Shown here: one piece after another, positions 1 to 45,995 of the stretch | Position numbering within the stretch: the first letter of the stretch is position 1 | Layout of the letters: each line of letters opens with the position of its first letter | Source of the DNA: Vicugna vicugna | Taxonomy: Eukaryota | Length of the DNA stretch: 64,000 nucleotides | Direction of reading: 5' to 3' | Assembly (NCBI GenBank): GCA_013265495.1 | Contig: MU057560.1 | Location: 1,190,753-1,254,752 of the forward strand | Made by a program: the position numbers and the translations under genes | Notes under the pieces: generated by a model | Databases searched by the model: none | Told to the model about the DNA's origin: nothing | What the model saw: only the letters and a program-made list of their open reading frames with translations

Positions 1-2581
1 AAAACTAGTCCAACAGTGAAGATGGATACTTGGAAGCAGATTGGTATCAAAATATTGCTGTAAAGGCACAGAGATGATCTCAGGTGTTAATCAGTAAAAA
101 AAGACATTCTGGAGGCAGAGATGAGTGTGGCTGACATGTGGGGACCTTGCGGCAGACCCTGGACAGAGCTGGGGAAGCAGGGGGCAGAGAAGCGCCAAAG
201 GGATGGTGAGAAGCCGCCTGTGTCTGGAGGCAGGCCCGCTCCCCCTCGCCGTCCGTGCGTCTGCTGCACCACGAACAGCATCCCCCAGAAGTCCCAGAGT
301 GCGGAGCCTCAGGACCTCCGAGGGCAGGCCCACCAGGTTTAGCAAAGAAGAATTCAGGGTGCCCAGTTACATAGTAATTTGAGAAAAACGATAGATACTA
401 TTTCATTATACACACGTCCCGATGAGGGAGATGTCTGAACAGGTGGAAAAGAACAGGGAAGCAATCCCAGTGAAAACAGAGCTGCAGGTGGAGCCCAGAG
501 GCCCCGTTCACCGGCTGCGCACTTAGGGACCCATGAAGAGTTTGCGTCATCCAGCGGGCGAGGTGCTAGGCCCCGGAAGGGGACGCCAAGCGAGCGTGTG
601 TTCCCCGTGTGCCGGGGACTGTCACACGCACTGTGTTCTTCTTAAGCAGGTGTGCAAGGTCCACATTATAAAACCGTTTTACTAGTGGGGAAAGTGAGCT
701 TCAGAGCTGTAAGCGGCTGTGCCTTAGAGACACATGAATGATAATTATTTCCTTAAAAAAAGACAAAAATTGAATATTCCGCATGTGCTCATATTCTGGA
801 GACATTAAAAGCAGAAAATAATTCATTATTCAATGTGTGAATGCCTTTTCCAGAAACAGAAACACGTAACCATGTGTCTCCAACCCACATCGCTCACGGC
901 GGCTTTCCTGCGTCCCTCGGTAAGGGCTCTAAGCTCCGCCCGGCACAGCAGCTCTTCAGTTTAGATAGGCCATTCTGAATTCAATTCTCACTTCCTTGCA
1001 GGTGCTAACTTCTAAATCCCTGATCAAAAGCAGCTGTTAATTAAGGATACCCAATATCATTCTCGCCTCCAGCACACGTTAGCTCCAAGCTCCCTGCTCG
1101 AGCTCAAAGCTGGCTTGCTCTGCCCAGCAACTGCCAACTCGCCAAGATCGCGCTTCCCCACAGTGAGGTGGACAAGACCACGCTTTCTCCATTTGGGGGT
1201 AATTGTATTAGTTGTTGTGAAATTCACCGTAACGGTCTACATGGAGATCAGTTTTATGGAAAATACAACAATCGCAAAACCGTGAAGAACGGATTCGGGC
1301 AAAGCACACTCAAGATGGGCTTCCGGGCTCCCTCGGTGGCTCTTCTAATGGTTTTGATGGTGCGTCTGACAGTACAGCCAGGGGGGCTCCGCAGCACTGG
1401 ATTTGGTTCAACTAGAGAAAAATACGTAGATAATTGTGAGATGGTTACAGGTTTCTTTCTTGCTACTGTTGCTGTTATTTTTAAAATGCAGAGAAATAGG
1501 CAATAAACCATGAATACAGAATAACTTTGGAAAAACAGAGGATTCTTAAAAAAACCCAAAAAACTGCAGGTGGAGAAGGACTTCGGGCATGAGCTATGTT
1601 GTTCTGTTTCCATTCTTTGACCTGAGTTTGGAGAATTATATGATATGGGAGTGGCATGAAGGAAAAATGACAGGAATTTCCGGGTAGACATTTAGAAGAT
1701 GTGGTAGGAAGGACATAAGATTTACAGCTAGACAGACCTCAGTGCGAGCGCAGGTCCCCCTTGGCTTCTAGCTGCAGAGGTGCCGGTAAGCTTTGCTCTC
1801 ACTGCTGGTTCGGGTTTCTGCCTGTACCGTGGGAAACAACAGAAGCGCACAGGCAGCATCAGCGGCAGCTTCTGAGTGTTCGCACCCTGAGCAGCCTCCA
1901 GTGTCCAGCTCTAGATGGATTTTCTTTAACTTGGACATGCCTGTGTTAGGCCAGTGTCCAAACAGTGTTAGAAAGGATGGTTTTTAAATTGAACTATAGT
2001 TCAGTTTACAATCCATACGTTAGTTTCCGGACTTTAACATGCAGATTCTAACATGCAAAATACGTTTGCAGCGTGCAGACGCGGTGCACAGCCTGACAGG
2101 TCTGGGACACCTTTCCACCCCGGGCTTGTGGCCATGTCTCCTCTGGCCGAGAGCCAGGGCCAGAGTCCACACACTCCTGCTCACTCTCTCTTGCTGTGAT
2201 GTGTTCCCCGGCTTGAGCTGCATCCTAGAAAGATTAGCGGTTTCATGACAGAGAGAACATACCTCATGCGCACGACATCTTTGGTCCTTGTCTCCTATTT
2301 GCCTCTTTGGTTCCATTCACCTTCATGGCCTTCCGAACTGTGCGCTCCCCGCCTCTCGCTGCCTGTGTGATTCCTGGTGGCTCCTGTCAGACTTTCACAT
2401 TCTTCGTTTATTAAATAAGATAGTTGAGATGAGCAAAGGCCCAGGGCAGTGAGCGCTGCCGTCGTGGGTGCTCCTCTCTTCCGACCGGTCACCAGCTCCG
2501 GCTGCCGGTGCCTGGTCTGGAAACCAAGCCCATCTTTCTTGGACTCATGTTTGCACTTTGTCCACTTGGTGTCTCGGTTTC

Positions 2582-3039
2582 TTTTTTTAAATTGAAGTGT
2601 AGTCAGTTTCCAACGTTGTGTTAATTTCTGGTGTCCAGCGGAGTGACTCGGTTACACATACACACACATATATTCCTTTTCATATTCTTTTCCATCATAG
2701 ACTATTACAAGATATTGAGTATACTTCTCTGTGCTGCACAGTAGGCCCTTGCTGTTTCTCTATTTTATGTGTAGTTAGCATCTGCAAATTCCAAACTCCT
2801 AGTGTATCCCTCCGCACCCCCGTTCCCCTGGTAACAGTAAGTTAGCTTTCTGTGTCTGTGAGTCTGTTTGTGTCTTGTAAATAAGTACACTCGTGTCATT
2901 TTCTTAGAGTCCACAGATAAGTGACATCGTATGACGTTTTTCTTTCTCTGTCTGACTTACTTCACTTGTATGACGATCTCCAGGTCCACCCATGTGGCTA
3001 CAAATGCCATGATTTTATTCTGTTTTTTAAACGGCTGAG
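2582..3039 (-). mobile_element. LINE-1 3' end fragment (cetartiodactyl-type 3' UTR plus end of ORF2)
   Basis: Starts with a T-tract and 'aattgaagtgtagtcagtttc...ttgtgttaatttctggtg', the reverse complement of the artiodactyl L1 3' UTR. Minus ORF 2957..3142 ends 'KIMAFVATWVDLEIVIQVK', which matches the L1 ORF2 C-terminus. Confidence 0.85.
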
Positions 3040-3319
3040 GCTTCCTGGTTTCTGGCTCACCGACTAGCCCCCGACTCTTCGACTTGTCCAGAAGCAGCCC
3101 ACGCAGACTCTGTCTCTTTGCTACCACACTGTACAAGGACAATCATACAGAATCAAGATAAAAATCTGTGATATTTTGGGGTTTGGGGATGCAACATAGA
3201 TTAGTGACGAATGTCACGTTCAATTTTTCATGCACAGGTACTTATTACAGAGTTCAACTTTCTTCCCGACAAACATAGGGAAAGGTTTATAAATTCCCTT
3301 ATTGAAAAGTCCTGGCTGC

Positions 3320-5390
3320 TTCCAGTACTTTTTTAAATTATGAGTAATTACGGGTGCAGGTTTTATGTGGGGTGACATTTTCAGACCGTTTTGGGTCAAT
3401 ACCCAGGAGCACTCTTGCTGGGTCAGAGGGTAAGGCTGTATTTAGCCTGTAAGAAGCTTGCGTGCTCCTTCAAAGTGGGGCACCGTTCTACATTCCACTG
3501 CAGCAATCGGTGAGGGTCTCTGTCACTCCAAACACTCACCGGCAATTGTCATTGTTACTTTTTTTTAAATTAGCCGTTCTTGTCCGTGTGTAGTGGTGTC
3601 TCACTCTCGCTCTCACTTTTAGCTCCATAACGTCAAATGGTGCTGAGCGTCCCTGCAGGTGTCTGTCCGCCATCTGTGTGTCTTCTTCAGTGATGTGCTG
3701 GTTCTTCCCTTCCGCACATTTTTAAATTAGGTTATCTGATTATTCTTTGTATTAAGCGTTCTTTGCACACGTCAGATACCAGTCCTTTATCAGACACGTG
3801 CTTTGCAGAGATTTTTCTCCCAGTCTGGGTCTGGTCATTTGATTCCCTGCACAGTATCTTTCCTAGACCAGGAATTAAAATGACTCACCAATGTTTCCTT
3901 CATCCGTCACACTGTGGTTTTCATCACCATCACAAGGTAATATGTTTTTCTCCTACATTTTCTCCTAGGTGCTTTATAGTTGTGTGTTTTTCATTTAGGT
4001 CTACAATCAAGTCTGAAACGATTTTGTGAAAGGTATCGGGTGTGTGTCTGGATGACGAGGGGAGGAGGAGGTTTGACACAGACACTCGATTGTTCCAGCA
4101 CCGTTCGTTGAAAAGATGATCCTTTCTGCACTGAATCACCATTGCCACCTTGTCAAGTATCAGTCATCAGTTCTGTGCGCCTCTGTTTCTGGCCCTCTGT
4201 TCTGTTCAGTTGAATCCATGTGTCCGTTTTTTGTAAACCAGCATCATGCTGTGTTGATTAAAGTAATTCTTGGAGTCAGTCTGTGTCAGTCTTCCAGATC
4301 TGTTCCTCTTCAGCGTTGTGTTGGGTACTCTGAAACTTTCGTCTTTCAATAGAAGCTTTAGAATCAGTATATAAAAATGTACAAAGAAGCTCGCTGAGAT
4401 TTTGATTGAGAATTCATCTACAGATCAAATTGGCAAAAACTAGTCTCTCAGCAATATTGAATCATCCTATTCATGCACGTGGACTGTGTCTCTACTTATT
4501 TAAATCTTTGATTCTTTTTATTTTTCTACACTTACATCCTGTATATGTTTTGTTAGCTTTTCACCAAAATAGTCCACTTATTTTGTGCTATTGCAAATGG
4601 TATTTGTATTTTCAAATTCCAATTGTTCATTTTTCCTGTATCAAAAGCAACTTTTTTCTACATTAATCTTGTTTCCTGCACGCTTGCTGCGCGAGCTTGT
4701 TCGTTCTAGCAGTTTCTCTGTTGATCCTTTGAGATTTCTACATCAACATCCGTAACTGTGAATATGCCGGTTTCATTGCTTCTTTCTCAGTCCGTATGCC
4801 TTTTATTTTCTTATCTTGCTTCAGTGTAACAGCTAGGACTTCTAGTGCAACGTCGGATAGAAGTGATGAGAGGGGATGTGGGCATCTGTACCTCGCTCCA
4901 GATCTTAGGGGTAAGGTATCCAGCTGCTCATCAGCAAGTATGATGTGAGCTGCAGGCTTTTTGTGGATACTTCTGAACAAGTTGAGTAAGGTAATTTTAT
5001 TCCTATTCTGGTGAATACAAATTTTTAGCATGAATAGATACTGCATTTTATGAAAAGCCTTTTCTGCATACCTGCATCAGTTCACATGATTACGATGTTT
5101 CTTCTTAGCCTATTGGTATGACGGGTTATACAAAGTGGCTTTGAAAAGCTGAATTAATGTTGCATACTTGGTATGATTGCCACTTGGTTGTGGTGTGTAA
5201 TTCTTTTTGATACATTGTTAGATTTGGTTAGCCAATATTTTGTTGAAAATTTTTACATCAAACTTCATGGCATTATGTTGGTTTGTAGTTTTCCTTCTTT
5301 GTAATCTCACTACCTGGTTTTGGAATTAAGAAGATGCTGTCCTTGCAGACTGAGTTAGGAAGTGTTCTCCCTGCTTCTGTTGTTAAGAGA
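3320..5390 (-). mobile_element. Old, decayed LINE-1 (L1M-type) ORF2 region
   Basis: Minus ORF 4738..5046 (KKPAAHIILADEQLDTLPLRSGAR...PLSSLLSDVALEVLA...KKIKGI) matches the L1 RT segment [41 protein letters not shown]. ORF 3930..4148 (RKDHLFNERCWNN) matches GKDSLFNKWCWEN. Many stops and frameshifts. Confidence 0.9.
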
Positions 5391-5519
5391 ATAAATAGAA
5401 TTGAACTGCATAAATGCTCAGTGGAATGAGGAGGGAAAATAAGGGGGACTGTCTACTTTTAAAGACATTTTTCTGTGCATTTCAGTTCAGGATTCCTCTA
5501 CTGACTGCACTCCAAGCGC

Positions 5520-8000: not shown

Positions 8001-9177
8001 AATATGAGGTCACACAGGGAAACAGGCAGCCGTCAGGACACAGCCACACTGTACACGGTTCTGCTGCCCGAGGCAAAGTCTGTGCACACGGCTTCCTGCG
8101 CCAGGGGACAGACCTGAAAGATGTTGAGCGGGGAGTAGCCATGAAAAGGTGTGTGTTCTGGAAAGCCTTTCCAGGAGTAGTACACACGAGAGATTTCAAA
8201 GGAGAAGAGGAGACATCGAAAGCAAACAGGATGCAATGAAAAGGTGAAGGCCAGTGATGGCGACAGTCTACACCTGGCCTGTGGTGGGGTGACGGGAAGA
8301 AGCAGAGGGGCGCTGGGGCTCGCCCTGCGCCTGGTGGACGAGCAGACACGGCGAGGGAAGAGGAATTCCGGGTTGCTGTGCGGGAGCCTGGTGGATAGAA
8401 ACGAGAGGCCCCCCGTGGAAAGGCAAGAGGCAGAGGAGGAAGGAGAGTGAGACCAGTTTGGACGGGCAGAGGTTACAGGCGGGGCCTATGGCTACAGAAT
8501 TTAGGAGAGGAACCTCTCCAAGCAGAAAGAACAGAAAATTACCAACAGGCAAATTTAGTTACTGGGACAGGGCAGCAGCCAATGCAATAAAACCTTCAGA
8601 ATCATTAGGTTGTGGTCTGGTCGCCCTGGGTTTGATCTTGTTAGAGGTTCGGGCGTCCTTTAGGGCTCGGCAGACGGGTCTGGAAGCGCACGTGACAGAC
8701 GTCTGGGCTGGAGGGGCGGGTGGGGCACACGGGGACGGGCGGGAGGGAGGAGGGCAGCCACGGAAATGCCTGGCACGCTCTGCTTGCTGCTGAGCCCCTG
8801 CCGAACGTCACAGGTAGGTGACAACACGTAACGCACACACGCTGAGAGGAGTACGTGGGTTTGTGAAGATACGTTATTAATGGTATGAATATCTTCATTA
8901 TACTGTTATGTTCTGAAATCACAGTTCACAGGTACACTTTCTCATCTCTTTCACTTAAGGTATTGCCTACAATTATTGTTCATTATCTATCTATTGGATA
9001 AATAACTAAATTAATGATTTTACACAGGAGAATTACAGTCTTCAAGACTGATTTGCCTAAATCATACACACGTGTGTATGTAATATGTATATTTATACAC
9101 ACATGTGTGTATGTGCTCACATCCACACACATCTCCTTTCTTGAGATAATGTCTCATTCAAAAGAATGTGCAATTTA

Positions 9178-9415
9178 TGGGGAGGGATAAATGATGAGTT
9201 TGGGATTAACAGATACACACAGATAAGACAGATAACAACAGGGTCCTACTGTACAGCACAGGAAACTACATTCAATGTCTTGCAATAACATATAGTGGGA
9301 AAGAACCTGAAAAAGAAAACATATATATACACACACATATATATATGACTTGGTCACTTCGCTGCACACTTGAATCTAACACAACACTATAAATCAACTA
9401 TACTTCAATAAAATC
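9178..9415 (+). mobile_element. LINE-1 3' UTR fragment (cetartiodactyl type)
   Basis: 'ggagggataaat...gagtttgggattaacagatacac...cctactgtacagcacagg...aaatcaactatacttcaataaaa' is the sense version of the element at 2582. Confidence 0.85.
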
Positions 9416-9899
9416 AATAGAAAAAGATTGTGCAATTGGTCAACTCTTATCAAGTGAAATTATGTGTGTTTTTAAAGTCAAAGACAGTGAAAGAACTGTG
9501 CAAACTGCATGCGCTCAGTGATACACGGTCACACAGAACAGGGGGACAGAAGCCTGGTAGCCTCCAGCCCCCATCAGTACATCCAGGAATAATTTAAGGA
9601 AAGAAACTTTGCCTTCGTGAGGGAAGGCTGAAGCTGGCCTCGGGTCCTGCTGGGGAGGTCGGCCCCTCCCCGGGGACCCCTGGCGATGCACTGACCCTCA
9701 GAGAGGCCTTCAGGCAAGTATTTAGGAAAGTGGTGGGCAGAGACAGAGCACCCCGAGGTGCCCAGGCCTCCGAGGAACAATGGTGCACGTCAGGCTTACG
9801 CGTCCTGAACATTCTAAAGTCCACGCTGACACAGATAAAACAATAGCTCATTTTGACCAAGAGCTTTTTAAAGGCAAGTGTATTTTTGGCGTTGATTTT

Positions 9900-11910: not shown

Positions 11911-14059
11911 GTAAATTCCAATGTCCTTCTGAAGCAATCGCCTTCCCTCGGTGGAATTACCCCTCTCGCCCCCGGGCTCTCGGCGGGCTGTTCCGCAGAG
12001 CAGCGTTGCACCTGCAGGCCCCGCGGTGCAGGGCCGTCCACCGGGAAGCCGCGGGCTCTGACGAGCTTCCCTGCATCCTTCCCATGTCTCTTTGGTGTCC
12101 TTTCCTTCCGTGGTCTCTGTGTCGTTTCATCAAAACAGTGAGTATGATGAGAATTGTAAGGTAAAGCCTATTTGGTCATCAGGGGTATGTGTTAGTTTTT
12201 TTGTTTTCTTTTTTAAAAAAATGTATTTTGATGTCACTTTTTAGTTTCCTAGCAGTAAAGTTGCCGGGAAGCCTGACTGCTAAGCAAGCAGGGTTCCTGT
12301 ATTTGTACACTCACTTGCGAGCCATATTGTACTGCAAAGAAATGCTTAGAAGGAAATGCGAATCAAGAATGACACTGAAATCTCACTAGAATGTGCTTTT
12401 AGAAACACTAAATACTGTAGATCAGTTTGAGTTCTTCCAAAATATGCTCCCTTCACAGCTGCTTTCTAAATTGTCTAAGAGCTTTAAGAAAGGAAATGTA
12501 TTAATAAAAACAACCAGCTTTCCCCCTCAATCTCTGATTTTAAAGGATCTGTGTGAACTGCTACAGACAATATAAAGGTCTTATCTATGTGTTTCTATAA
12601 CTGGTTGCCTTTTTCTTCTTTTTTCTTTGTAAGAGAAGAACGTCAAACCTCTAGTTTCTTTGTAGCGTATAATTGTAACAAGATAGTCAAAGAAAAGAGG
12701 AGGCTTTCAGAAATGAAAGTCATTCCTTAAAGTCTGAGGATTTAGTAGATTATGAGAGAAAATTAACTCATGTTCAAAGGGTTATTAGAAAAATCTAAGA
12801 GGCTCTGACAACAAAACTTCTGTGCTGCACTCAGGCACAGACTTCACTGGGCAGCACGAAATATGAAGTAAGATTTAAGAGCTCCCTGATCAGGAGGGCA
12901 CAGATCATTGCAAAGCCCCCTTTAATTAAAGGTGGAATTTGTCTGGATCATGAAGAGGATGGACACGTGGATGGATTTACAGGTTCAGTGTGGCTGCAAG
13001 GAAGTTTCATGTTTTCTCCCCAGAAGAAGCTCATTTTTTGAAAAGAAACATTTTTGTCCATAGATAATATATTTAAATAATAAAATAGATGCATATCTGT
13101 TCCCTTATTTCTTTTTATTGTAAGCTCTAAATTTTTATCATCAAACTTTATTCTGACCAAAGAAGTAACATTTTAAAAATCAGTGGGAAAAAAAAAACCC
13201 TCAAAAAACCAAAGCTTTACCCAGTTGCATTAGTCTGAGTCCACATCCACACACATTTATTTTCATTGCGACTTCAGAGAGGAATCCTCACACTGTTTTT
13301 CAGATCATTTCGAGATCAGTCAAGACTGGGACAATGAAGTAGAAAATAGTTCTACAGTTTGTGCTGTTTGCTTTAACCCTGTTCTTCAGGGGCACCGACT
13401 GTCCACTCCAGCAGCACCAGCGCTGGGGGTCCCCGGCCCCTCAGGGGGCAGGCTCCCTGGAACCGCTGGCCTCCACCTGCCTTCTCCTCATCCTCCCAGG
13501 TTCCTCGGCGGGGCGGGTGTGAGCTGCCAGCCCTTCCCTCCACCCCACTACCCGCCTCCGCGCACCCCTACTGCTGCTCCCCTCCTCGCCTGGGTCTCCT
13601 GTTCTGGACAACTTACAGTAAAGGGGGCCAACAGCTTTATTTGGACTTGCTCTTTACGGCAGCCCCTACACACACACGCGCACGCACGCTTTAGAACCGA
13701 GTTATCGATCGTGGGTCTAGAGCAGGTGTCTCAGTGAGTCACACTTTTCTGTCCTCAGAACCACCCCTCCCTGTCCCCTGCATTTCTGAGCCAAATGCCT
13801 GAGCTTTTTCTCTCTTCCCTTAAGTGGATTCCATCTCAGGGGGCCCTGGGTTTAGCAATGTATGTACGTGGGTGCGTGGTGGGCTATTCACGGAATGTGC
13901 AGGTGCACACTGGCCCCCTGTGTGTGCGCTAAGCCGTCCAGGAGTGGGCCTCCCCAGGAAGCCTTCAGCCCAGCATGCACCTTCTATAACTTTAGAAAGG
14001 GAATTCAATTTTTCCTTTTCATTTTGTGGAAAAATTGAAGACTAAGCAGCATATGTGCT

Positions 14060-14215
14060 GAGGGTTCAGCTGGAATTCCAGAGGGACTAGATTTGAATGA
14101 GAGCTTGGCCTCTCACAGCGAGTAGCCTTGGACAAATGCCCTGACCTGCAAAGGGCGTTCCTCACCTGTAACCTGGAGAGAAAGGTAAAATCTGCTTCAC
14201 AGAGCGGTTGTGGGG
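14060..14215 (+). mobile_element. MIR, 5' portion (apparently interrupted by the L1 insertion)
   Basis: 'ccttggacaaatgccctgacct...ttcctcacctgtaacctggag...cttcacagagcggttgtgggg' follows the MIR consensus up to 'gttgtgagg'. Confidence 0.65.
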
Positions 14216-14995
14216 CCGAAATAAACTTACAAGCTTCTGCACAGCAAAGGAAGCCATAAGCAAAACAAAATGACAACCTGCAGAACGGGAGAAAATTTTT
14301 GCAGAAAATAAAACTGACAAAGGCTTGATCTCCAGAATATATAAACAGCTCATACAACTTAATAAGAAAAAGCAAACAACCCCATCCAAAAATGGGCAGA
14401 AGAACTAAACAAGCAATTCTCCAAGAAGAAATACAAATGATCAACAGGCACATGAAAAAAATGCTCAATATAACTAATTATCAGAGAAATGCAAATTAAA
14501 ACTACAATGAGGTATCATCTCACACCAGTCAGAATGGCCGTCATTCAAAAGTCCACCAATGACAAATGCTGGAGAGGCTGTGGAGAAAGGGGAACCCTCC
14601 TACACTGCTGGTGGGAATGCAGTTTGGTGCAGCCACTGTGGAAAATAGTATGGAGATTCCTCAAAAGACTAGGAATAGACTTATCATGTGACCCAGGAAT
14701 CCCGCTCCTGGGCATATATCCAGAAGGAACCCTGCTCCAAAATGACACCTGCACCCCAGAGTTCATAGCAGCACTATTTACAACAGCCAAGACATGGAGA
14801 CAGCCTAAATGTCCATCAACAGATGACTGAATAAAGAAGATGTGGTATATTTATACAACAGAATACTATTCAGCCATAAAAATGACAACATAATGCCACT
14901 TGCAGCAACATGGATGTCCCTGGAGATCCTCATCCTAAGCGAAGTAAGCCAGAAAGTTAAAGAAAAATACCATATGAGATAGCTCATGTGTGAAA

Positions 14996-15031
<36 letters not shown>
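14211..15031 (+). mobile_element. Young 5'-truncated LINE-1 (camelid-type), ORF2 C-terminus ending in A33
   Basis: ORF 14489..14830 ([22 protein letters not shown]...[26 protein letters not shown]) is the cysteine-rich L1 ORF2 C-terminus. An uninterrupted poly(A) at 14999-15031 starts within the ORF2 stop ('aatctaa'). Confidence 0.95.
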
Positions 15032-15033
<2 letters not shown>

Positions 15034-15189
15034 ATATAACATAGTTTTAATTATATATGGATTTTATGAGCCTATTTTGTGTGTGTACATCCACAAAATT
15101 CTGTATCATTTAAAAGACTTGTTTACTATAGAGTAGAGCCATTATAATGTCTTAATTTTCTCATTTGCATAACTATAGATAAAATACTA

Positions 15190-15460
15190 TAATACAATCT
15201 TTAAATACCCAGATGTTGGAACCAGGGAAACCTACATTCAAGTCCTTGTAATTCTATTTCTACTGGGAGGCCATGGACAATTTATTTAACTTCTTCTTTG
15301 CTTCACTTTTCCCATCCAAAATGAGTTTCTGTTATTCTAAAATGGCATGATAAATGCTCCAAGCTCCCAGGATTGTTGTGGAAATAAATGAGGTGAAACT
15401 TTCACCACATTTTGCACAGTGTCTGGGAAACAATTATGTTTTTAAAAAGTGTCTCATTAT
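15190..15460 (+). mobile_element. MIR, near full length, AT-rich
   Basis: 'ggccatggacaatttatttaacttct...ggattgttgtggaaataaatgaggtgaa...ttgcacagtgtctggg' matches the MIR consensus. Confidence 0.75.
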
Positions 15461-16548
15461 CATATTCTTTTTCTAACATTCTTGGACTTTGTGGTTCAGG
15501 TAAATCAGTTTTATTATTTACTGTAGACACTTTCTAAATTAAGTTTGTAAAAGCTTGACTCAATTTTTATTGTATGAAAATATTTTTATTGAAGAAAATA
15601 TCAGAAATGGAGTCAAAATTGGGCTAGTGATGATTTGGGTATTTTTTAAAATGCTTTAAACTTGGGTGATGCATAAAATATTATTGGATTGAGCTGGGAT
15701 GCAGCTATGGTTCTGTTTCAGACAATCTTGCTGTCTGTCTGATCTGTGGATGTTGACATAAGTCTGCATTAGCTATAAAGCATGCTTGACAGAAGCAGGA
15801 AGGAACAAGAGATTCTTTGAATGGCTTCTATTTTGATTTAATTCCTTTTGTATTAGAAAGTAGGTTTATCCTTAATAACTGATGATTCAAAATGTCATTC
15901 TCATTTTGCTATGAATTCTTACAATTTCTATCCATTATATGCTGTTCAACAATGAATGAGATTATTGAGCAATATTTCTATTTATTCTTAGTAATGAAAG
16001 AGCTGTTCTAATCATTTAAATATTATGGGTTTTAGAAAGCTCAAGGCCTCACAGCCCCAGAATGGCTAGTGGCAGAGCTGTATAACAAGCTCGAAAAAGT
16101 CAGAACTTATTGTTTAAGTGTTGTTGGACCAAAAAAATCAGCTAGTTAGGAAATAAACTAATTAGTACCAGTTCAGGCAAACTAACTTGTCTATTTTCTA
16201 ACTAGCCAAATACACACTGACACACACACACACACATTTTTTAGAAGATTCAAGTCATCATGGAAGAAAAGCCATAGAAGAATTATAGAAGAAAGTAGAT
16301 TAATCTTGCTGCTTTGTCTCTGCTAAGATACAACAAAAAATACTATTTAATTTCATAATATTTAAATATGATTTCTTCAAAATTAAAAGCCAAGTAAGAG
16401 ACAATTAACCAGCATACATTTGCCGGAAAATAAGACAGAAACACATTTAGAAGAATTAATATATAACACACCACAGAGACTAGAACACACTATAGCCCCA
16501 GTTTAGGAAAGAAGAAAATAAAGAAAGAATCTTCATAGAAGAAAAATA

Positions 16549-16615
16549 GCCAAATGGAGATGGACTCCGCCTCCCGTGCCTCCAGCTTACTTGCTATTGT
16601 GCCTCGCACAAGCCA
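16549..16615 (+). mobile_element. MIR, probable 3' continuation of the 14060 fragment
   Basis: 'gccaaatggagat...tgtgcctcgcacaag' resembles MIR 'gattaaatgagat...agtgcctggcacatag'. Confidence 0.4.
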
Positions 16616-19499
16616 TCTTCCCTCACCCTCTCCCAGACCCCAAATACCAGGAACACTGTGATCCGCAGCCCTGTCCCTTGTCCACAGCATGTCTTCATCT
16701 CCCTCCTTCACTTACACCCATCCCACACACACCCACTCAGCCCCCTCGGCCCTCTCTTCTTCCGGCACAGCCAGGACAAACCCACACTCCAGGGGAGCAC
16801 GGCTGTCCACAGTCAGATGGCCAGATGTGTTTGGACAATCAGGGCATCAGACAGATTGACATCCGTCTACGTGCGTGTGATCGCTAACCTCGCCCGGGCC
16901 CTTGATTCCCAGTTGCCCTGCTGTGTCTCCCTGGACAACTCAGCAAAGACAAGCGGTGAATGCCAAGACTATAGCTGTGTTTCCGGAACATTTGCCAGAT
17001 GCCAGTGTGGTTTTTAAATTTGTACACATCCATGTAGCTGGTGAACAATTTTGGTCATAGGAAAATTCAGCAGAAGAGCAATTCCACAAACGAATCTAGT
17101 CTTTTTGCTTTTTTTAAGTCGGCTCTAGATGGTGTAGTCCAGCATTGTGCCTCGCGGGTGATGACGGGGCAGCTCTGCCGAACCCGGACTCCCCGCTGAG
17201 CCTTCAAAGCGCTCCTGCCCCAGCCCGAGCTGACTGGCTCGCCTGCCGCTGACTGGCGAGGTTGTGTTTTACGTCAGAACTGCCGAAGATGGGGCGCATT
17301 TCTCACACAAAGTGTAGGATCAAATAAAATAGCTGTAATGGACAGTGTTTGCAGTGATGACGATTTAGGGACACACGGCTTCCTACTCACCACTTCCACC
17401 CCCACCGGGGGGCAGCAGGGATGTGCTGAGCTGCACGTGCAGTTACAGGGGCTGCAAACACACCGTCGTTCGTGGGCAGCCCCCTCCGGCAACCTGTCAA
17501 CACGAATGTTCTTGGTTTCGCCCATTTTTTTTAATTGAACAGAATGTTCATAAATGAATTACTGTCCATGTTCAACTGTAGGTTTTCCAGACTTGGGAGA
17601 ACTGATTTAAAATTAAGAAGGGATAGTGTCTTGGACTGTTTGAAACAAATATTAATTTGTAAAGACTCACATGCGCCCAGCTGGGCTGTCAAAGCAGGTA
17701 CTCAGAATGTGAAATTGACATGTGCAATTTCTTAATCCTCAAAAGGAGAGAAAATAGGGCAGCAATGATCAACACGGAAATGGTGGAATTCACCTGGCCC
17801 TCACCCAGTTCTCACGCACTTCACTTGGAATGGGTACCACAAGGCTGCACACACATGAGTTCTGAGTAGGATTAGGGAAATCTTATCTGTATTTTTTTTT
17901 TTTGGCTTCTTAAAAGAGAGGCTGAGATTATTTAAAGCAATTAAACCATGCTGATTATAAGTAGATGTCGGTTTCTAATTAGTGAGTGGGATGTTTCCAA
18001 GGAAAGTCTGTTTTGGGAGGATGGGGTTCTTTTCTGTGGCCCTGGCTCATTGTTAAATGGATGAAATCATAAGAGAAACAAGATCACTGCCGCACTACAA
18101 AGCCTGCGTGGCCTGTGGCTCAGTGGCCCACAATCTGCCGTGTTTCTACGGCTGCAGGAGATGGGGTGAGCTTGCCTTGTGCGGCCGTCAGATGCCCCAT
18201 GGAAAGGCGCCACCAGGCAGCCTCTGCCCCATGGTGGGGCCTTGCTCCTCCCAGGGATGTGAGGACACGTGAGCAGGCTGGGGAGCAGCCTGGGCCCCGG
18301 CCCCTGACTTCAGAACGCTGGCTCTTATCTTCCCCCTGAGCACGGCCCTGCAGCTGTCAGATGGCTCTGCGTTTTAAATCCTGTTGCCTGTCAATCATGG
18401 GCAAATGACAAGAAAAAACTCGAGCATAAAACCTGAGTCCTGGGGAGCAGAAAGTTTTGCTTTCTGCTGAGGACACTCAGCTTCTGTGGCTTGGTTTTGA
18501 TTTGCTCCCGTGTAGACAGTTCTTTTTGCTTTAAAATGTGTTTTAAAGGCTCTGGGTCCAGAATAAAATTCAAAGGATATGAAAGAAAGCAACTGAAGGG
18601 AAAGAGAAAAATCTGTGAGACAGGAAGTGGCCCCAACTCACTAAAGACCAGAGGCCTGGCTTTCCCAGGTGTGTGGGGTGCGGTCCAGGCCTGTTCATCA
18701 CTGGGATGCAGCCTTCAGGCTTGGAGTCCATATTTAAGGTGGAGAGAAATTCTTTCATCCGCGGACACTTCCGATCGGAGGCGCGGCTCCGGATGGTCTC
18801 AGTGATGTGGGGACTGCGGAGCGCTCGCTGCGTGGCTCTCTCGGGCCAGGGGCGCTGAGTGCGCACCTGCCGGCAGGTGGAGGGCTCCTCGGGACAGCGG
18901 GGTCTTTGTGAAACTGCTCCTCAGAGCCGGGCCCTGGCTGTGGGATGCCTCTGCCTTCCACGGGCCTTCTGCTGGTTAAGCATTTGAAACTCACTCAGAC
19001 CCCAATTACAATTTTTAAACCTCTACTGCAATGATGTAAATTATGTCTTTGCAGCATTATTCTATTTTAAATCCTATTTTGAAAGATGTCTTAGAGCAAC
19101 CAGTTGTATTTCCCTAAGGCCCACTATTAAGTATTAACACCTTCCAAGGCAGGGACCCGTTTCAATATCAAAGTGGCATTCTGATTCTTAAAACTTTACT
19201 TTAGGAATGAACTTTACCCAGACCACATAAACTGGGTCAGACTACCATGGACGGGTCATGTGCAGGAAGTATGCAAGGGAGTTTGTTCATGTTTTTACAA
19301 ACAAAAGTCGTGCCATTTCTCTTACAAATGGAAAAATATAAAGTAAAAAAGTTATTTTAAACTATATATAACACTACAAAACACAGAAATCACTGTTAAT
19401 AGTATATGTTTCCTACGGGCATTTTTTGAGTCCCTTCATGATGATGGTTTTTGTATCTGCATGTCGCCGACATACGTCGCCAAATTGTTATCAAATAAA

Positions 19500-20150
19500 C
19501 TAACTAGCTTCGTGCTTCCCCAGCAGTGAGTGGTTAGGCCCATTTTATTGCGTCGAACCTTTATCATGTACCTGTGCGTGTGTCTGTGTGTATCAGGGTA
19601 TTCTGATTTGATAAGCAAACATGCAATTCCCTGATTTCTGGCACAAGTGAGCATTTGTGAGAACCAGCCTCGCTTCTTTGAATCCTCTGTTCAGAGCTTT
19701 TGCCCATTTTTTGAGGCTTTGGTGGTTTTCATATAATGCTGCATGAGTTCTTTGTATGTTAACTTTTCTCTGCTTTAATTTGATTAATTTGGTTAATTTC
19801 ATATAAAACCGCATGTTTTTATAAATTCGATTTTTAAATGATTTTGCCTTTCTTATTTTTAAGCCTAGACAGTAGGCCGTTCTCTAGTAAAGGTCTTCTG
19901 ATGGAAGTGGCTGCCAGACGCCTGGGCCAGACCTGCATGGGACCAGCGGTGCCTTTCACGTCGGAGCCCCAATCCACTGCACAGTGGTTCACACGACCTC
20001 ATTGAACTGGCATCTGGATTTGCTTTTGTGTTCTGATGCCTGACCATCTCCCCACATCGAACTACCAGCGTGATCGAGCCTCTTGTCTTAACACCCTGAG
20101 CATCCCTGTGCCAGCCTTGTCTGGACCCGGGCAGTTTTTAGTTTTCTTCA
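19500..20150 (-). mobile_element. Ancient L1 (L1ME-like) remnant within the duplicated unit (second copy about 21485-22135)
   Basis: 'cttccccagcagtg...ttccctgatt...ctgttcagagcttttgcccatttttt...gttctttgtatgtt' follows the antisense L1 ORF2 3' region. ORF 19593..19814 contains 'QSLKKWAKALNRGF', compare L1 NPIKKWAKDMNRHF. Confidence 0.65.
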
Positions 20151-20347
20151 TCAGTTCCTGTGGAAAGGTAAAGCGGGTCAAGGTGATGTGCTTGGACCTG
20201 AGACAGGAGTTTTATCAGACTTCAGAGTCATTCCCAGGAAAATACACTCCTAACTGAGACAGGGGAAAGACTTGGCAACTTCTAACTTTCAACATATTTA
20301 CAGAATTACAATATTTTAGAGTTTAAATCTCTAAAGCACGCTAATAG

Positions 20348-20386
20348 TTTTTTTTCCCTTTTTTTTTTAATGGAGGGATTGAACCA
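20348..20386 (-). mobile_element. Possible tiny 3' fragment of a camelid tRNA-derived SINE (Vic-1-like), duplicated at about 22333-22371
   Basis: T-tract followed by 'aatggag-ggattgaacc', compared with the remembered antisense SINE end 'aatggaggtactggggattgaacc'. The match is very short. Confidence 0.3.
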
Positions 20387-23300
20387 ATTAATTTTTTTTT
20401 TTCTTTTCCATTCTCAGGAAGGGAATTGAGACTGAGAGGTGCCCCGGGGACCGCCCAGAGTCTGCTGGTGAGGAAGCCAGCTCGGGCGGGGAGCAGCCAT
20501 GTCCTTAGGGCTCAGTGTCTATCGATGGCAGCTTAGAGAAGCCAGGCCCTTTGACTACGCCAGGATCGACTGTGACTTTACCAGATCCCCAGTCAGAGAA
20601 AATCAATGCATCAGCAACCCTGTGCATCAGGGACAGTGGAGACTTTTCTTGATCATAAAGGGGCATAACTCTGAGTTGCAAATCACATTTAATGGGGAGT
20701 AGGAGGAAAAACGCACCCTGATCACACTTCCATGGGACGCTTTTCATCTCAAGTCCTGAGTTCTTCTCTTGAATTAGTCACCAGTCCAATTTTTTTCCAA
20801 AGCATAGTACACTCCTCAAAGAAGCACCTACAGAAGAAATTCAGGAAGGTGAGAAAAGCAGGTGGAGGGCTCCTCGGGACAGCGGGGTCTTTGTGAAACT
20901 GCTCCTCAGAGCCGGGCCCTGGCTGTGGGATGCCTCTGCCTTCCACGGGCCTTCTGCTGGTTAAGCATTTGAAACTCACTCAGACCCCAATTACAATTTT
21001 TAAACCTCTACTGCAATGATGTAAATTATGTCTTTGCAGCATTATTCTATTTTAAATCCTATTTTGAAAGATGTCTTAGAGCAACCAGTTGTATTTCCCT
21101 AAGGCCCACTATTAAGTATTAACACCTTCCAAGGCAGGGACCCGTTTCAATATCAAAGTGGCATTCTGATTCTTAAAACTTTACTTTAGGAATGAACTTT
21201 ACCCAGACCACATAAACTGGGTCAGACTACCATGGACGGGTCATGTGCAGGAAGTATGCAAGGGAGTTTGTTCATGTTTTTACAAACAAAAGTCGTGCCA
21301 TTTCTCTTACAAATGGAAAAATATAAAGTAAAAAAGTTATTTTAAACTATATATAACACTACAAAACACAGAAATCACTGTTAATAGTATATGTTTCCTA
21401 CGGGCATTTTTTGAGTCCCTTCATGATGATGGTTTTTGTATCTGCATGTCGCCGACATACGTCGCCAAATTGTTATCAAATAAACTAACTAGCTTCGTGC
21501 TTCCCCAGCAGTGAGTGGTTAGGCCCATTTTATTGCGTCGAACCTTTATCATGTACCTGTGCGTGTGTCTGTGTGTATCAGGGTATTCTGATTTGATAAG
21601 CAAACATGCAATTCCCTGATTTCTGGCACAAGTGAGCATTTGTGAGAACCAGCCTCGCTTCTTTGAATCCTCTGTTCAGAGCTTTTGCCCATTTTTTGAG
21701 GCTTTGGTGGTTTTCATATAATGCTGCATGAGTTCTTTGTATGTTAACTTTTCTCTGCTTTAATTTGATTAATTTGGTTAATTTCATATAAAACCGCATG
21801 TTTTTATAAATTCGATTTTTAAATGATTTTGCCTTTCTTATTTTTAAGCCTAGACAGTAGGCCGTTCTCTAGTAAAGGTCTTCTGATGGAAGTGGCTGCC
21901 AGACGCCTGGGCCAGACCTGCATGGGACCAGCGGTGCCTTTCACGTCGGAGCCCCGATCCACTGCACAGTGGTTCACACGACCTCATTGAACTGGCATCT
22001 GGATTTGCTTTTGTGTTCTGATGCCTGACCATCTCCCCACATCGAACTACCAGCGTGATCGAGCCTCTTGTCTTAACACCCTGAGCATCCCTGTGCCAGT
22101 CTTGTCTGGACCCGGGCAGTTTTTAGTTTTCTTCATCAGTTCCTGTGGAAAGGTAAGGCGGGTCAAGGTGATGTGCTTGGACCTGAGACAGGTGTTTTAT
22201 CAGACTTCAGAGTCATTCCCAGGAAAATACACTCCTAACTGAGACAGGGGAAAGACTTGGCAACTTCTAACTTTCAACATATTTACAGAATTACAATATT
22301 TTAGAGTTTAAATCTCTAAAGCACGCTAATAGTTTTTTTTCCCTTTTTTTTTTAATGGAGGGATTGAACCAATTAATTTTTTTTTTTCTTTTCCATTCTC
22401 AGGAAGGGAATTGAGACTGAGAGGTGCCCCGGGGACCGCCCAGAGTCTGCTGGTGAGGAAGCCAGCTCGGGCGGGGAGCAGCCATGTCCTTAGGGCTCAG
22501 TGTCTATCGATGGCAGCTTAGAGAAGCCAGGCCCTTTGACTACGCCAGGATCGACTGTGACTTTACCAGATCCCCAGTCAGAGAAAATCAAGGCATCAGC
22601 ACCCCTGTGCATCAGGGACAATGGAGACTTTTCTTGATCATAAAGGGGCATAACTCTGAGTGGCAAATCACATTTAATGGGGAGTAGGAGGAAAAATGCA
22701 CTCTGATCACACTTCCATGGGACGCTTTTCATCTCAAGTCCTGAGTTCTTCTCTTGAATTAGTCACCAGTCCAATTTTTTTCCAAAGCATAGTACACTCC
22801 TCAAAGAAGCACCTACAGAAGAAATTCAGGAAGGTGAGACGCAGAGCATTAAAAAAAAAGAAGATTATCTCTAAGAAGTCCTTCTGAAGTAAACTCATTG
22901 TGTAAGAGGATGAAATCATTTAATTAATTTGGTAAATTTACAACCATCAAGTTACTGACAAGTCGCAGCAACAAGCACACAGTGGGAGCTGCAGTCCTGT
23001 GTGCTTAACAGACACGTGAAGATGAAGGCATGGTTTCGTTACCAGCTTACCTCAGTTTTCTTAGTAGCCTACATGCTCCGTGTTTTCTGGGATCATGCAG
23101 ATGTGAATGGAAGTTTGAATGACTAAATAAATGAAAAGCCCGTTGTCTGCAGAGGCCAAGCACACGTATGATGTTGGGTGATGCGCCCAGAAACACACAG
23201 CGGCTCCTGCACCTCACAAAAGCCATTGTCAGACTGTATTTGGCTTTAATGATCTGATTCCCAGACGTAATAATGCTGTTCCACTCGAAGATTCTCTTTC

Positions 23301-25918: not shown

Positions 25919-26336
25919 CATAGTCAGTTGAAGACTGTCCCCTAAACCTTCAAGTTCACTTGGAACCTCAGAATGTGACCTTATTTGGAAACAGATCTCT
26001 GTGGACATGACTAATCTGGGGGCCTCAAGCTGTGATCATGGTGGGCTTAGGGTGGCCGTAGCCCCAGTGACCCGTGTCCTTGAGGGTAAGAGAGGAGAAG
26101 ACAGAGAGACAGGGAAGAGGCCAGGTGAAGTCGGCGGCAGAGGTTAAAGTAACGTGACCACGAACCAGGGAGCGGCTGGAGACACCAGAAGCTGGAAAAG
26201 TCAAGAAAGACCCTCCCAGCCCCGCCTGCCCGTGACTGTGGGCTCCGCCTTTCAGAACCGTGGAAGAATGACGTTCTGCCGCTTGCACCGCTGAGTTTCT
26301 GGTGCTTAGTTACAGCAGCCACAGGAAACTAACGCA
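25919..26336 (+). mobile_element. MaLR solo LTR (MLT1C/D-like)
   Basis: 'gaacctcagaatgtgaccttatttggaaa...caccagaagctggaaaagtcaagaaaga...ttagttacagcagccacaggaaactaac' are typical MLT1 motifs. Confidence 0.85.
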
Positions 26337-26869: not shown

Positions 26870-27650
26870 TCCAACGTGACTTGGCTTCTCACTTGCCTAA
26901 CGAACATCTCAAACTCAGCGTAACATTAAATGAACTCACACTCTCCCCACAAACCCACTTCAGTGGCAAACATCCCTCTCTGCTGAAGGCAACACAGCCC
27001 TCCAGCTGGCTTAGCCCCAGAGCAAAGCTCAGAGCCAGCTTTTACCCTCCCGCCTCTCCGCGTTAATCTCCAGTGTACTGCGGTCTCCAGTGTCTAAGTG
27101 GATGCAGAATTTGACCACTCAGCTCCCCCTCTGCTTCTGAGACGATGGTCCAGGACACCATGCACCTCCAGCCCAGGGACCTGCCCTCGTCCGCTAACCA
27201 AGCTCACGTCTATGTCTCCATCATACCTCAGGCTCACTGTAACGGCCAAAGGCAGACCATGTGGGACGACCTTGACTCANNNNNNNNNNNNNNNNNNNNN
27301 NNNNNNNNNNNNNNNNNNNNNNNNNNNNNNNNNNNNNNNNNNNNNNNNNNNNNNNNNNNNNNNNNNNNNNNNNNNNNNNNNNNNNNNNNNNNNNNNNNNN
27401 NNNNNNNNNNNNNNNNNNNNNNNNNNNNNNCTGCAATCTCCAGTCTTCTCCCCTTGTTCTTTTTTTTTTTTTAATGACAGTATCACTTTGTAACATTTGG
27501 GAATCATGCTGTTGGCTTATTGTCTGCATCCTGTGATGTAATCTAAGCTTGGCTACACTAATGTATTTTTTTCTTTTATCTTATCGCTAGCTTGGTAGTG
27601 TCTAGAATAGCATCTGGAGCACTGTTCTCTTATGAATAAATATTTGCTGA
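26870..27650 (+). mobile_element. L2 fragment spanning the assembly gap
   Basis: 'aacatctcaaactcagc...aatgaactc...gaatttgaccact' on the left and the L2 tail 'gtgtctagaatagcatctgg...tgaataaatatttgctga' on the right. Confidence 0.65.
27280..27430. other. Assembly gap (151 N)
   Basis: Run of n characters. Confidence 1.
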
Positions 27651-37384: not shown

Positions 37385-37950
37385 ATCTGTCTTCCAAGTA
37401 CCTGGGGCCGGGCGGAGCCTTTTACGCAATAATCCCGTTCGTGCAAAGCTGAACTCCGTTCCGCCAGCAGCGCCGCCACAACCGCCGGCCTTCGGTGCCT
37501 CTTCGCTCTTCTCACCCGGCGATGTCGCCAAGGCCTTCGGCCTCCTCTCCGCTCCGCAGAAACGCGAGCCCGGCCCGGGCTGCCGCCCCGGTTTCTCCCC
37601 GCTGTCAGATCCCGTCCGCGGCCTGCCTTCTGTGGCTATTTCCGTGTGGCGGGGCCTCGTGAGCCTCCGGCCGCCTGTGCGACCGCCGACGCCGCGGCTC
37701 TCCTCCTGAGCTCCCTCGGCCAGCGGCCCAGGCCTGCTGCTGGGGGCAGCTTCGCTCCTGCTCTGCCTCCCGCCCGTCGGCGCCGTTCGGGGGACGCCCG
37801 GCAGGCGTCGTCCCGCGTCCGCACCGCTCCGCCGGGAGAGCCCGCCGCGCCCGCGGGGCCTGCTGGGCGGGCTTCTCGCAGCGCCGCCTGCGCCTCCTCC
37901 CGGCTGGCCGGCGTCCTTCGATCGCGGAGAATCTTCACGGCCCGCTGGCT
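37385..37950. promoter_or_regulatory. CpG-island-like GC peak (no associated gene identified)
   Basis: About 560 bp of very high GC with dense CpG and an abrupt return to AT-rich DNA after about 37960. Confidence 0.75.
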
Positions 37951-39458
37951 CTTCTCGACACTGCTTCAATTTCAAAGTCAGGGAAGCAGTCTGATTAGGG
38001 AAGTTCTAGGCCTTCTGAATGAATTTCTAACCGGGAAGACAACGGTTTATCTGCAGTATCAAATATTTTCAAAGCTGCAAATGACTATTTAGAACTTGCA
38101 ATTCAGGATTCCTTAGCGCCGTCCCAGTGCGAACAGAGACACATGTCTCATGTGGCATTAACCGTGCCTGTTACACACCTAAGGATGCCGTACGAGATCT
38201 CTCACAGGCAAGGACCGTCATTTAGGGCATGCTTGGACACCCTCACATATAATTGTGTGACCACGGAAGAGGTGAAAACATTTCTAAAAAATATATTTTA
38301 GGTCTACAGAGTTAGAAGAAGACGGATAATTGGGGCCCTGAGTTCACCTGTGATCTGTGATCTGCTCTTTTCGGTATAGTTTTTGTAGGAACGGGAGGAT
38401 GGGTTACAAAACGGGGGGAGAGAGGACATCTGAGTATCTGTTTCGATCCTGCCACAAATGGTTAACCACAAACGGGTGACGGTTTCTCAGCTGTTCACTG
38501 TTTCATTTTATTTACCTGCGAAGAGAAACACCTGTCGACCTGCTTACTCTGCATGTATGTCACGTGGAGGAGGTCATAGCAGTGGCCGTCTGGCTCTCAG
38601 GAGCTAGCATTAGGGTTATTACACATTTCCACTGAGAAGACTGTCTTTCTTTGATGGTTATTTAGGTTCTACATCCAAATTTGAAAGGAATTGCCAGGTG
38701 TCCTTCTTCCCTTCAGTCCCTGTGCTGGACCACACCGTACACTCTGCACCGGCTACCCTCTCTGGTACTAACAGTTACGCCTTGCAAGTTGTCTTCTGGT
38801 TCATAAAGCATCTCCATATGTACTGTCTTGTAAGGTTCACATATAATTTAATATACAGACAACATATTGTATGAATCAGAGTAAAGGCTGAATTGTCGGA
38901 ACAATGGGACGTAAGTGTGGCTTAGATAAAGCAGAAACTCTGAGGAGAGTGTTTCAGGATGCTCACGGGTCTGCTCCTCTCAGCCATCGGGGACGAAGGT
39001 GGCTTCCAGTGTGGCGGCATTGGAACCCCTGGGGCTGAGCTAGAAATCCTACATTTCCGCATTTCTACGTTTCAGTTCTCAAAAAAGGGGAAGGGAACCA
39101 TGTGGAAGGAACGGCCCGTGTCCTCAGGCCCTGCTAGCGCTTCGCAGGCCCGGCTCTAGCGCTCTGTCTTCTGTAAACTTTTGTGTAACTGTTGCACTCG
39201 AAAGTGTTTTGACTCATCTACCTTCTTCTATGCAAATATCTTTCTTTACCTGTATTATAAACACCTAAAATAGAGAACTATGATTTCATAGTTTGTATGA
39301 TAGATTTTGAGGCTTTGTATCAAGTGTTTCCCATAGTCGACAGAAATTTTTAAAAAGGACCTAACAGTCAGTAGTTGAATTTGTGAGTCATTGTTGCCAA
39401 CCAGCCCACAGTTGTAATTGTGTCAGAAAAAGGAGGGGCAACAGATAGGATCTGATGG

Positions 39459-45752: not shown

Positions 45753-45995
45753 ACCCCCCAAAATTTTTTTAATAGTAGGTTCTGCAGGTTTTTAATGAAG
45801 AGAATGATCTCTATGAACTGGTGCCTTCAGGAACGACTTCTGAAAGGAAGGCAAAGGTGACCTGCATATACCCCCCCCACATTTTTTTAATAGTAGGTTC
45901 TGCAGGTTTTTAATAAGAGAATGATCTCTATGAACTGGTGCCTTCAGGAACGACTTCTGAAAGGAAGGCAAAGGTGACCTGCATATTTTTTTAAT
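45753..45995 (+). repeat. Tandem duplication, two copies, period about 118 bp
   Basis: 'tttttttaatagtaggttctgcagg...ggcaaaggtgacctgcatat' occurs at about 45764 and 45882, nearly identical (one 1-nt indel). Confidence 0.97.

What the first reader, a model, noticed from the sequence alone, without database searches (positions are those of the whole stretch)
14211..16555. Candidate L1-mediated 3' transduction: young L1 plus about 1.5 kb of compositionally foreign DNA inserted into a MIR
Seen directly: after the L1 A33 tail, 15032-16548 is AT-rich and I count only 2 CpGs (about 16092 and 16424), whereas 3 CpGs occur within 16561-16610 and the rest of the window is CpG-rich. A MIR stops at the L1 5' junction ('gttgtggggccgaaat') and seems to resume at 16549 ('gccaaatggagat...tgtgcctcgcaca'), giving an imperfect gcc(g)aaat duplication. 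An AATAAA (16517-16522) lies about 26 nt before the right junction in an A-rich stretch. The left junction also resembles L1 'tgggacc.aat', a possible microhomology. Established: L1 read-through of weak or missing poly(A) signals mobilises 3' flanks. Inference: the whole 2.3 kb came from a donor L1 in an AT-rich locus. Caveat: there is no clean terminal poly(A), so microhomology-mediated DNA capture is an alternative.
Basis: partly seen in the sequence, partly recalled or inferred. Interest (0 to 1): 0.7.

Follow-up and report, generated by a model that had tools for sequence, protein, structure and literature searches.

The report
L1-carried DNA whose source is missing
A dead scrap of a LINE-1 jumping gene sits beside 1.5 kb of DNA that is chemically unlike its surroundings and was probably copied in with it from elsewhere, but the usual insertion marks are missing and no source copy was found, so this is an untidy case of a known kind of genome accident.

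Summary
The composition claim holds. 15032-16548 has 2 CpGs (o/e 0.055; the lowest elsewhere outside young L1s is 0.26), a sharp GC step at 16549, and its own full-length MIR that drifted AT-rich while the MIR 1 kb away drifted GC-rich. The block is real and shared: 8 of 8 public runs bridge the right junction.

The transduction hallmarks do not hold. The A33 is the internal A-tract at the ORF2 stop, not the normal L1 tail, and the 3' UTR is missing. The gcc(g)aaat 'duplication' scores at chance level. MIR resumption could not be shown with an underpowered test. No second copy appeared in 8 of 8 runs, although the L1 is only about 4-5% decayed, so a surviving donor should have been visible.

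Best reading (0.45): a read-through RNA from a 3'-UTR-less L1, integrated without a target-site duplication, whose donor has since been lost or was missed. Rivals: native DNA beside an L1 insertion with a deletion (0.2), DNA-level capture (0.17), two separate events (0.1). Outgroup synteny was not testable. Ordinary class; the missing donor is the only puzzle.

The parts
14080..14222 (+). Left MIR (core SINE), GC-rich, ending at the L1 junction short of its 3' end
   Evidence: Collinear with fetched MIR copy L007, 17 of 3380 window pieces score as high; GC 0.52 and 4 CpG over 14060-14222
14211..14222 (+). Junction zone that fits both the MIR and the L1 (possible microhomology)
   Evidence: 9 of 12 letters match the L1 copy at 43532; the same letters end the MIR alignment
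14211..15000 (+). 5'-truncated, dead L1 fragment: last ~260 codons of ORF2 up to its stop codon; no 3' UTR
   Evidence: 83% to the L1 at 43532-44340; 4 stops, 4 frameshifts, 20-28 private amino-acid changes of 254; nearest L1-identity protein hit is a Camelus bactrianus record, 87%
14999..15031 (+). A33: the internal A-tract at the ORF2 stop, not the canonical L1 tail
   Evidence: comparison with L1 copies at 43532-44345 and 2580-3016
15032..16548 (+). AT-rich, CpG-poor, single-copy block of old non-L1 genomic DNA
   Evidence: no L1 ORF2 match; single copy in 8 of 8 runs
15213..15437 (+). Second MIR, running through to its 3' part, inside the block; GC 0.38, no CpG
   Evidence: 0 of 3360 window pieces score as high against L007 or L005
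16141..16206 (.). 66-nt imperfect palindrome, possibly a MITE remnant (label inferred)
   Evidence: Fold z -3.05, 1 of 200 shuffles as good; no Rfam family reaches its gathering score
16504..16548 (+). A-rich purine end of the block, holding AATAAA at 16517-16522; not a clean poly(A)
   Evidence: 62% A, rank 1 of 1473 overlapping 45-mers in the block; hexamers
16549..16555 (+). Right boundary (GC step); the proposed duplication copy is at chance level
   Evidence: Change point 16549, interval 16538-16568; bridged by one contig in 8 of 8 runs

Best explanation
The 2.3-kb unit is probably one insertion copied from an over-long L1 RNA: a source L1 that likely lacked its 3' UTR would have read through into 1.5 kb of AT-rich neighbouring DNA, the copy likely integrated without a target-site duplication, and the source locus has probably since been lost or was missed. 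Steps: (1) the L1 piece ends at the A-tract on the ORF2 stop and has no 3' UTR (shown); (2) the source L1 therefore had no poly(A) signal of its own and read through (inferred); (3) reverse transcription began in the A-rich stretch at 16504-16548, by internal priming or on a short tail now decayed (inferred); (4) the cDNA stopped 0.79 kb into ORF2 and joined the MIR by a few paired bases, probably deleting target DNA (inferred; absence of a duplication shown); (5) the unit is present in all 8 runs laid, from three organism labels (shown); (6) the donor is not visible (shown) because it was deleted, lay on a lost or unsampled chromosome, or was filtered (inferred).
For: Block is a compositional outlier: o/e 0.055 against a minimum of 0.259 in 1025 windows; its 1060-nt CpG-free part compares with a longest gap of 397 among 1753 elsewhere. 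Inner and outer MIR differ in GC (p 0.007) and CpG (p 0.03). An old L1 in the window carries local CpG levels (o/e 0.49), young ones do not (0.13-0.16), so low CpG marks recent arrival; residence as long as the 53-kb L1 would give about 14 CpGs (P of 2 or fewer 1e-4). L1 lies in sense before the block and lacks its 3' UTR. The block's last 45 nt are its most A-rich 45-mer, with AATAAA 26 nt before the boundary. Internal priming and target-site deletion without duplication are documented (PMC4859970 passages).
Against: No second copy at 80% or more in 8 of 8 runs. A donor 10% or less diverged would share 31-mers and break the contigs (0 of 2000 simulations without a shared run), yet 6 of 8 runs hold the stretch in one contig. 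An always-reading-through source should have left sibling copies; none was seen. No clean tail although the A33 stayed pure. Three upstream poly(A) hexamers would have been skipped (15383, 16152, 16382). The A-rich rank is partly favoured by how the boundary was chosen. 1.5 kb is long: human germline L1 transductions had median 63 bp and maximum 997 in a short-read study (PMC9311842 passage).
Confidence: 0.45

Rival explanations
1. The 1.5 kb is native. The L1 inserted here by internal priming on its A-tract at the A-rich left edge of an unusually AT-rich patch and deleted target DNA on the left, including the MIR's 3' end.
For: Explains single copy, no duplication and no MIR resumption at once. 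The letters right after the A33 begin like classic L1 endonuclease targets listed in PMC4859970 Table 1, which also lists an internally primed L1 with a 17-kb deletion and no duplication. Sharp GC steps are common in this window. The L1 at 43 kb shows AT-biased change (13 to 26), so the local regime is not uniformly GC-gaining.
Against: No other native stretch comes close: 16 AT-rich 500-nt blocks average 5.8 CpG against 0, 0 and 2 here. The two MIRs drifted in opposite directions. The A-richest 45-mer falls at the boundary.
Confidence: 0.2
2. DNA-level capture: a piece of chromosome already holding a dead L1 end and its flank patched a double-strand break here (class 2 templated insertion), either copied from a donor later lost or moved by cut and paste.
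For: No duplication, no clean tail, possible microhomology, as described for class 2 TSIPs (PMC5110952). Cut and paste needs no surviving donor. The block has fewer CpGs (2) than the roughly 6 expected from ageing here as long as the L1 (P 0.06).
Against: A random fragment would rarely start inside a young sense L1 and end in the A-richest stretch. A recent copy would be even easier to see than a transduction donor, and none was seen. Cut and paste needs an unlinked deletion and insertion both to fix (inference). L1 and block do not differ significantly in CpG gain (p 0.22).
Confidence: 0.17
3. Two events: an older poly(A)-tailed insertion of non-coding DNA (tail now decayed to 16504-16548), later hit by the younger L1, which deleted its left end and left duplication.
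For: Explains a decayed right tail beside a pure A33, and a donor 15% or more diverged would leave contigs unbroken in 23-56% of simulations.
Against: Needs two rare events at one site. An older block should have gained more CpG. An 82-85% donor should still have been laid at the 80% setting unless filtered.
Confidence: 0.1
4. The window is misjoined at the A33 or within the L1, so the left flank and L1 do not belong with the block.
For: The left junction and the link across the A33 were not tested with reads. The window has an N gap and a likely false 2-kb duplication.
Against: Both flanks share the same CpG-rich character. Contigs run 22-35 letters left of 15034, as expected if they end in the A-tract (those letters were not seen). 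The block-to-right-flank join is real in 8 of 8 runs.
Confidence: 0.04

Closest known systems
Partnered L1 3' transduction (PMC4859970, PMC4862182, PMC9311842; passages read)
   Same: 5'-truncated sense L1, then an A-tract, then unique non-L1 DNA ending near an AATAAA.
   Different: No target-site duplication above chance, no second clean A-tract, no source locus found, L1 3' UTR absent, cargo longer than most.
L1 insertion with target-site deletion and internal priming (PMC4859970, Fig. 2g and 2j legend and Table 1 rows, e.g. the EYA1 insertion)
   Same: 3'-truncated L1 ending at an internal A-rich tract, no duplication, loss of target sequence likely.
   Different: Here 1.5 kb of probably foreign DNA follows; the deletion is inferred, not seen in a pre-insertion allele.
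Non-classical, endonuclease-independent L1 insertion (Sen et al. 2007, PMC1920257; abstract and sections 11, 12, 16 read)
   Same: No duplication, possible junction microhomology, non-L1 DNA joined to the L1 piece.
   Different: Extra DNA there was 4-312 bp; here 1517 bp with an A-rich end. Those loci were verified against pre-insertion sites.
Class 2 templated sequence insertion polymorphism (PMC5110952; first quarter of the text read)
   Same: Distant DNA as a patch without retrotransposition marks.
   Different: Defined by a mapped donor and polymorphism; here no donor and no empty allele in 8 runs.

Membership tests
Partnered L1 3' transduction | L1 3' portion in sense upstream of unique DNA | tested here: met
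Partnered L1 3' transduction | One target-site duplication enclosing L1 plus cargo | tested here: not met
   Best match is reached by 70% of 1553 random zones
Partnered L1 3' transduction | Terminal poly(A) after a downstream poly(A) signal | tested here: inconclusive
   AATAAA 26 nt before the boundary; end is 62% A with longest run 5
Partnered L1 3' transduction | Source locus holding the same cargo | tested here: not met
   No second long piece at 80% or more in 8 of 8 runs; contigs matching human DNA are dropped silently, and the sex of the samples is unknown
Partnered L1 3' transduction | Empty site in other individuals or outgroups | not testable with these tools
   No loose end at 16549 shown in 8 runs (present in all); no outgroup genome held
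L1 insertion without duplication (target-site deletion or non-classical insertion) | Lineage-young L1 fragment | tested here: met
   Groups with a camelid copy, about 4-5% private decay
L1 insertion without duplication (target-site deletion or non-classical insertion) | No target-site duplication | tested here: met
   None around the whole unit or around the L1 alone
L1 insertion without duplication (target-site deletion or non-classical insertion) | Junction microhomology | tested here: inconclusive
   9 of 12 letters at 14211-14222 fit L1; they may be L1-derived with 3 changes
L1 insertion without duplication (target-site deletion or non-classical insertion) | Deletion against the pre-insertion allele | not testable with these tools
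   No pre-insertion allele; MIR test underpowered
Class 2 templated sequence insertion | Donor region mapped elsewhere in the genome | tested here: not met
Class 2 templated sequence insertion | End-joining marks at both junctions | tested here: inconclusive
   Left possible; right cannot be judged without the donor

The most novel reading that the evidence does not exclude
The block is a fossil of a vanished chromosome segment: an L1 on the ancestral camelid Y (non-recombining, AT-drifting, CpG-stripped) read through into its flank in the male germline, the copy landed in a CpG-rich region, and the Y original has since decayed away. The block's CpG level, below even bulk mammalian DNA, and its missing donor would both follow. 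Source-less L1 cargo could then be used to recover lost Y sequence.
Probability: 0.07. Interest if true: 0.55.

Novelty: new member of a known kind. Interest (0 to 1): 0.22.

Why it matters
Little, on the best reading: one fixed, non-coding L1-associated insertion with no sign of function. It has two modest uses. It shows that the A-tract at the camelid ORF2 stop can be mistaken for the L1 tail, and that copies ending there have no poly(A) signal. And it is a test case for cargo whose source is gone: finding the block's ortholog in an outgroup would show where the DNA came from and whether the donor was deleted or Y-linked.

Tried and rejected
No whole genome is held, so no direct genome search. 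Earlier-findings look-ups by sequence, place, relatives and words gave nothing for this locus. The window's own MIRs do not align to each other above chance (580 of 1000 shuffles), and an in-silico empty site gained no score. A profile of 7 fetched core-SINE loci was too weak (best E 1.9); only L005 and L007 of the 7 were used further because only they carry a MIR-like 3' part. Short contig hits inside the block (15148-15184, 15257-15292, 15557-15594, 16324-16360; 31-38 nt) have loose ends unlike the window and were rejected as donor pieces. Rfam: 0 hits at gathering score in the window; 4 weak hits in 13900-16900, none near its gathering score. The block is not an L1 ORF2 remnant and not a young multi-copy repeat (flat depth). 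Methylation spreading from the L1 was rejected: the left flank keeps CpGs up to the junction and spreading would not lower GC to 0.31. A substitution-bias test of where the L1 aged (28 AT-to-GC against 10) was set aside because it mixes subfamily and private changes. The host gene was not identified; none of the 78 frames of 110 aa or more was recognised by eye as non-L1 coding.

Full report
Observation. The counts are right: 2 CpGs in 15032-16548 (16092, 16424), GC 0.311, CpG o/e 0.055, against 45 CpGs in the next 1452 nt. Among 1025 overlapping 1517-nt windows outside the insert, two young L1s and the N gap, the lowest o/e is 0.259 and the lowest count 14. The longest CpG-free gap among 1753 elsewhere is 397 nt; the block's own CpG-free part is 1060 nt.

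The L1. 14211-15000 is the end of ORF2, 83% like the copy at 43532-44340. Read through with X at breaks it has 4 stops, 4 frameshifts and 20 private plus 8 ambiguous amino-acid changes in 254 sites; simulation converts this to about 4-5% nucleotide decay (the yardstick is one dead copy, P0005, so this is rough). The A33 (14999-15031) begins inside the ORF2 stop codon. The 43-kb copy has a 12-A tract at the same place and continues; the copy at 3016-2580 (minus) continues about 300 nt to its real end. So the A33 is internal and this element has no 3' UTR or poly(A) signal. That helps the read-through idea, since such a source must read on, but it also fits an L1 primed internally at this very site.

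MIRs. With a MIR copy fetched from metagenome contigs (L007; search motif and the name MIR are recalled), the left element aligns from 14080 to exactly 14222 (17 of 3380 window pieces as high), and a second MIR at 15213-15437 aligns through its 3' part (0 of 3360). The inner one has GC 0.38 and no CpG, the outer 0.52 and 4 CpGs (p 0.007 and 0.03). So the block is old genomic DNA that aged under a different regime. The claimed resumption at 16549 gave no signal, but the positive control, the inner MIR's own 3' part, also failed (500 of 2752). This point is open.

Junctions. The gcc(g)aaat match is reached by 70% of 1553 random zones, and no duplication flanks the L1 alone. 14211-14222 matches L1 at 9 of 12 letters and also ends the MIR alignment, so it is either microhomology or decayed L1. 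The last 45 nt of the block are its most A-rich 45-mer (62% A, rank 1 of 1473) but the longest run is 5, beside a pure A33. AATAAA lies 26 nt before the boundary; three earlier hexamers exist, so one such hit is weak evidence.

Other genomes. Of 24 runs listed, 20 hold 15034-17400 at 0.86-0.95 of words, under three organism labels. I laid 8 of those 20, one per study (5 of organism A, 2 of B, 1 of C), at 80% likeness. X1 may be the source of the window and is not independent. The right junction is bridged by one contig in 8 of 8. Six runs hold the whole stretch in one contig; X8 breaks at a heterozygous site and X9 at depth about 7. No joint, no loose end at the boundary among the rows shown (1 and 2 rows hidden), and no second piece longer than 61 nt (8 shorter rows hidden per call). 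So the block is real, present in every run laid, and single-copy as far as seen. Limits: contigs matching human DNA are dropped silently, rare variants are dropped, and sample sex is unknown. A filter-independent argument: a donor 10% or less diverged would share 31-letter runs and break the contig (0 of 2000 simulations without; 2% at 12%, 23% at 15%), assuming the assembler breaks at shared words, as the 31-nt high-depth contigs suggest. With 4-5% decay per copy a donor near 90-92% is expected. It is not there. The left junction and the link across the A33 were not tested.

Mechanism. Low CpG marks recent arrival in this window: an old L1 has o/e 0.49, the 53-kb L1 0.32, the two youngest 0.13-0.16. 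The block fits arrival with the L1 (about 6 CpGs expected, 2 seen, P 0.06) and not long residence (14 expected, P 1e-4). Against a simple clock, the 43-kb L1 shows AT-biased change. I commit at 0.45 to one RNA-templated event from a 3'-UTR-less source, integrated without duplication, donor since lost or missed. Native DNA beside an L1 with a deletion (0.2) needs no missing donor but must explain a strong compositional outlier. DNA capture (0.17), two events (0.1) and misjoin (0.04) follow. These odds are judgement, not computed.

Comparison. It works like a partnered 3' transduction but fails two defining tests (duplication, source), so I do not file it there. It belongs, under either leading reading, to the known broad kind of L1 insertions without a duplication. 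Papers seen: PMC4859970 passages; PMC1920257 abstract and sections 11, 12, 16; PMC5110952 first of four parts; PMC4862182 and PMC9311842 passages. No supplements were opened. One search for camelid LINE-1 subfamily papers listed one review, seen as listing only; I make no claim that this locus is absent from print. One search on Y-linked sources was seen as listings only, so the Y idea rests on general knowledge and is untested.

Verdict. Real compositional insert-like block, non-canonical junctions, no donor. Ordinary class with one loose end. Interest 0.22.

Noticed in passing
window 18873-20854 and 20858-22839: A 1982-nt tandem duplication, 99.5% identical (10 differences), is probably a false duplication of two haplotypes or private to this sample: in 7 runs one contig runs 6581-6605 nt past 17400 unbroken, which lands at 25966-25990, at an LTR-like repeat (label recalled), if one copy is removed.
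   Followed up: partly
window 42900-44345: An older-subfamily L1 also stops about 25 nt into its 3' UTR, with no tail or evident duplication, inside an old minus-strand L1 remnant; the 340 nt after it hold 1 CpG.
   Followed up: partly
window 9170-9410: An L1 3' UTR end with its own AATAAA explains the CpG-poor patch at 9001-9500 (read by eye).
   Followed up: no
window 2580-5500 (minus): Old L1 with a complete 3' UTR whose CpG level (o/e 0.49) has risen to that of the region; with the L1s at 53 kb, 43 kb and 14 kb it forms a rough CpG age series.
   Followed up: partly
window 16141-16206: 66-nt palindrome inside the block, fold z -3.05; possibly a MITE remnant.
   Followed up: partly
window 45754-45986 and 52240-52686: Two-copy tandem repeats of 117 nt (97%) and about 225 nt (96%).
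   Followed up: no
window 27280-27430: 151-nt N gap.
   Followed up: no
window 37500-38000 and 61000-61500: Two CpG-island-like stretches (GC above 0.70, o/e about 1); no host gene identified.
   Followed up: no
protein P0005: A Camelus bactrianus GTF2F2 isoform record ends in about 260 residues of camelid L1 ORF2, an exonised or mis-annotated L1.
   Followed up: no
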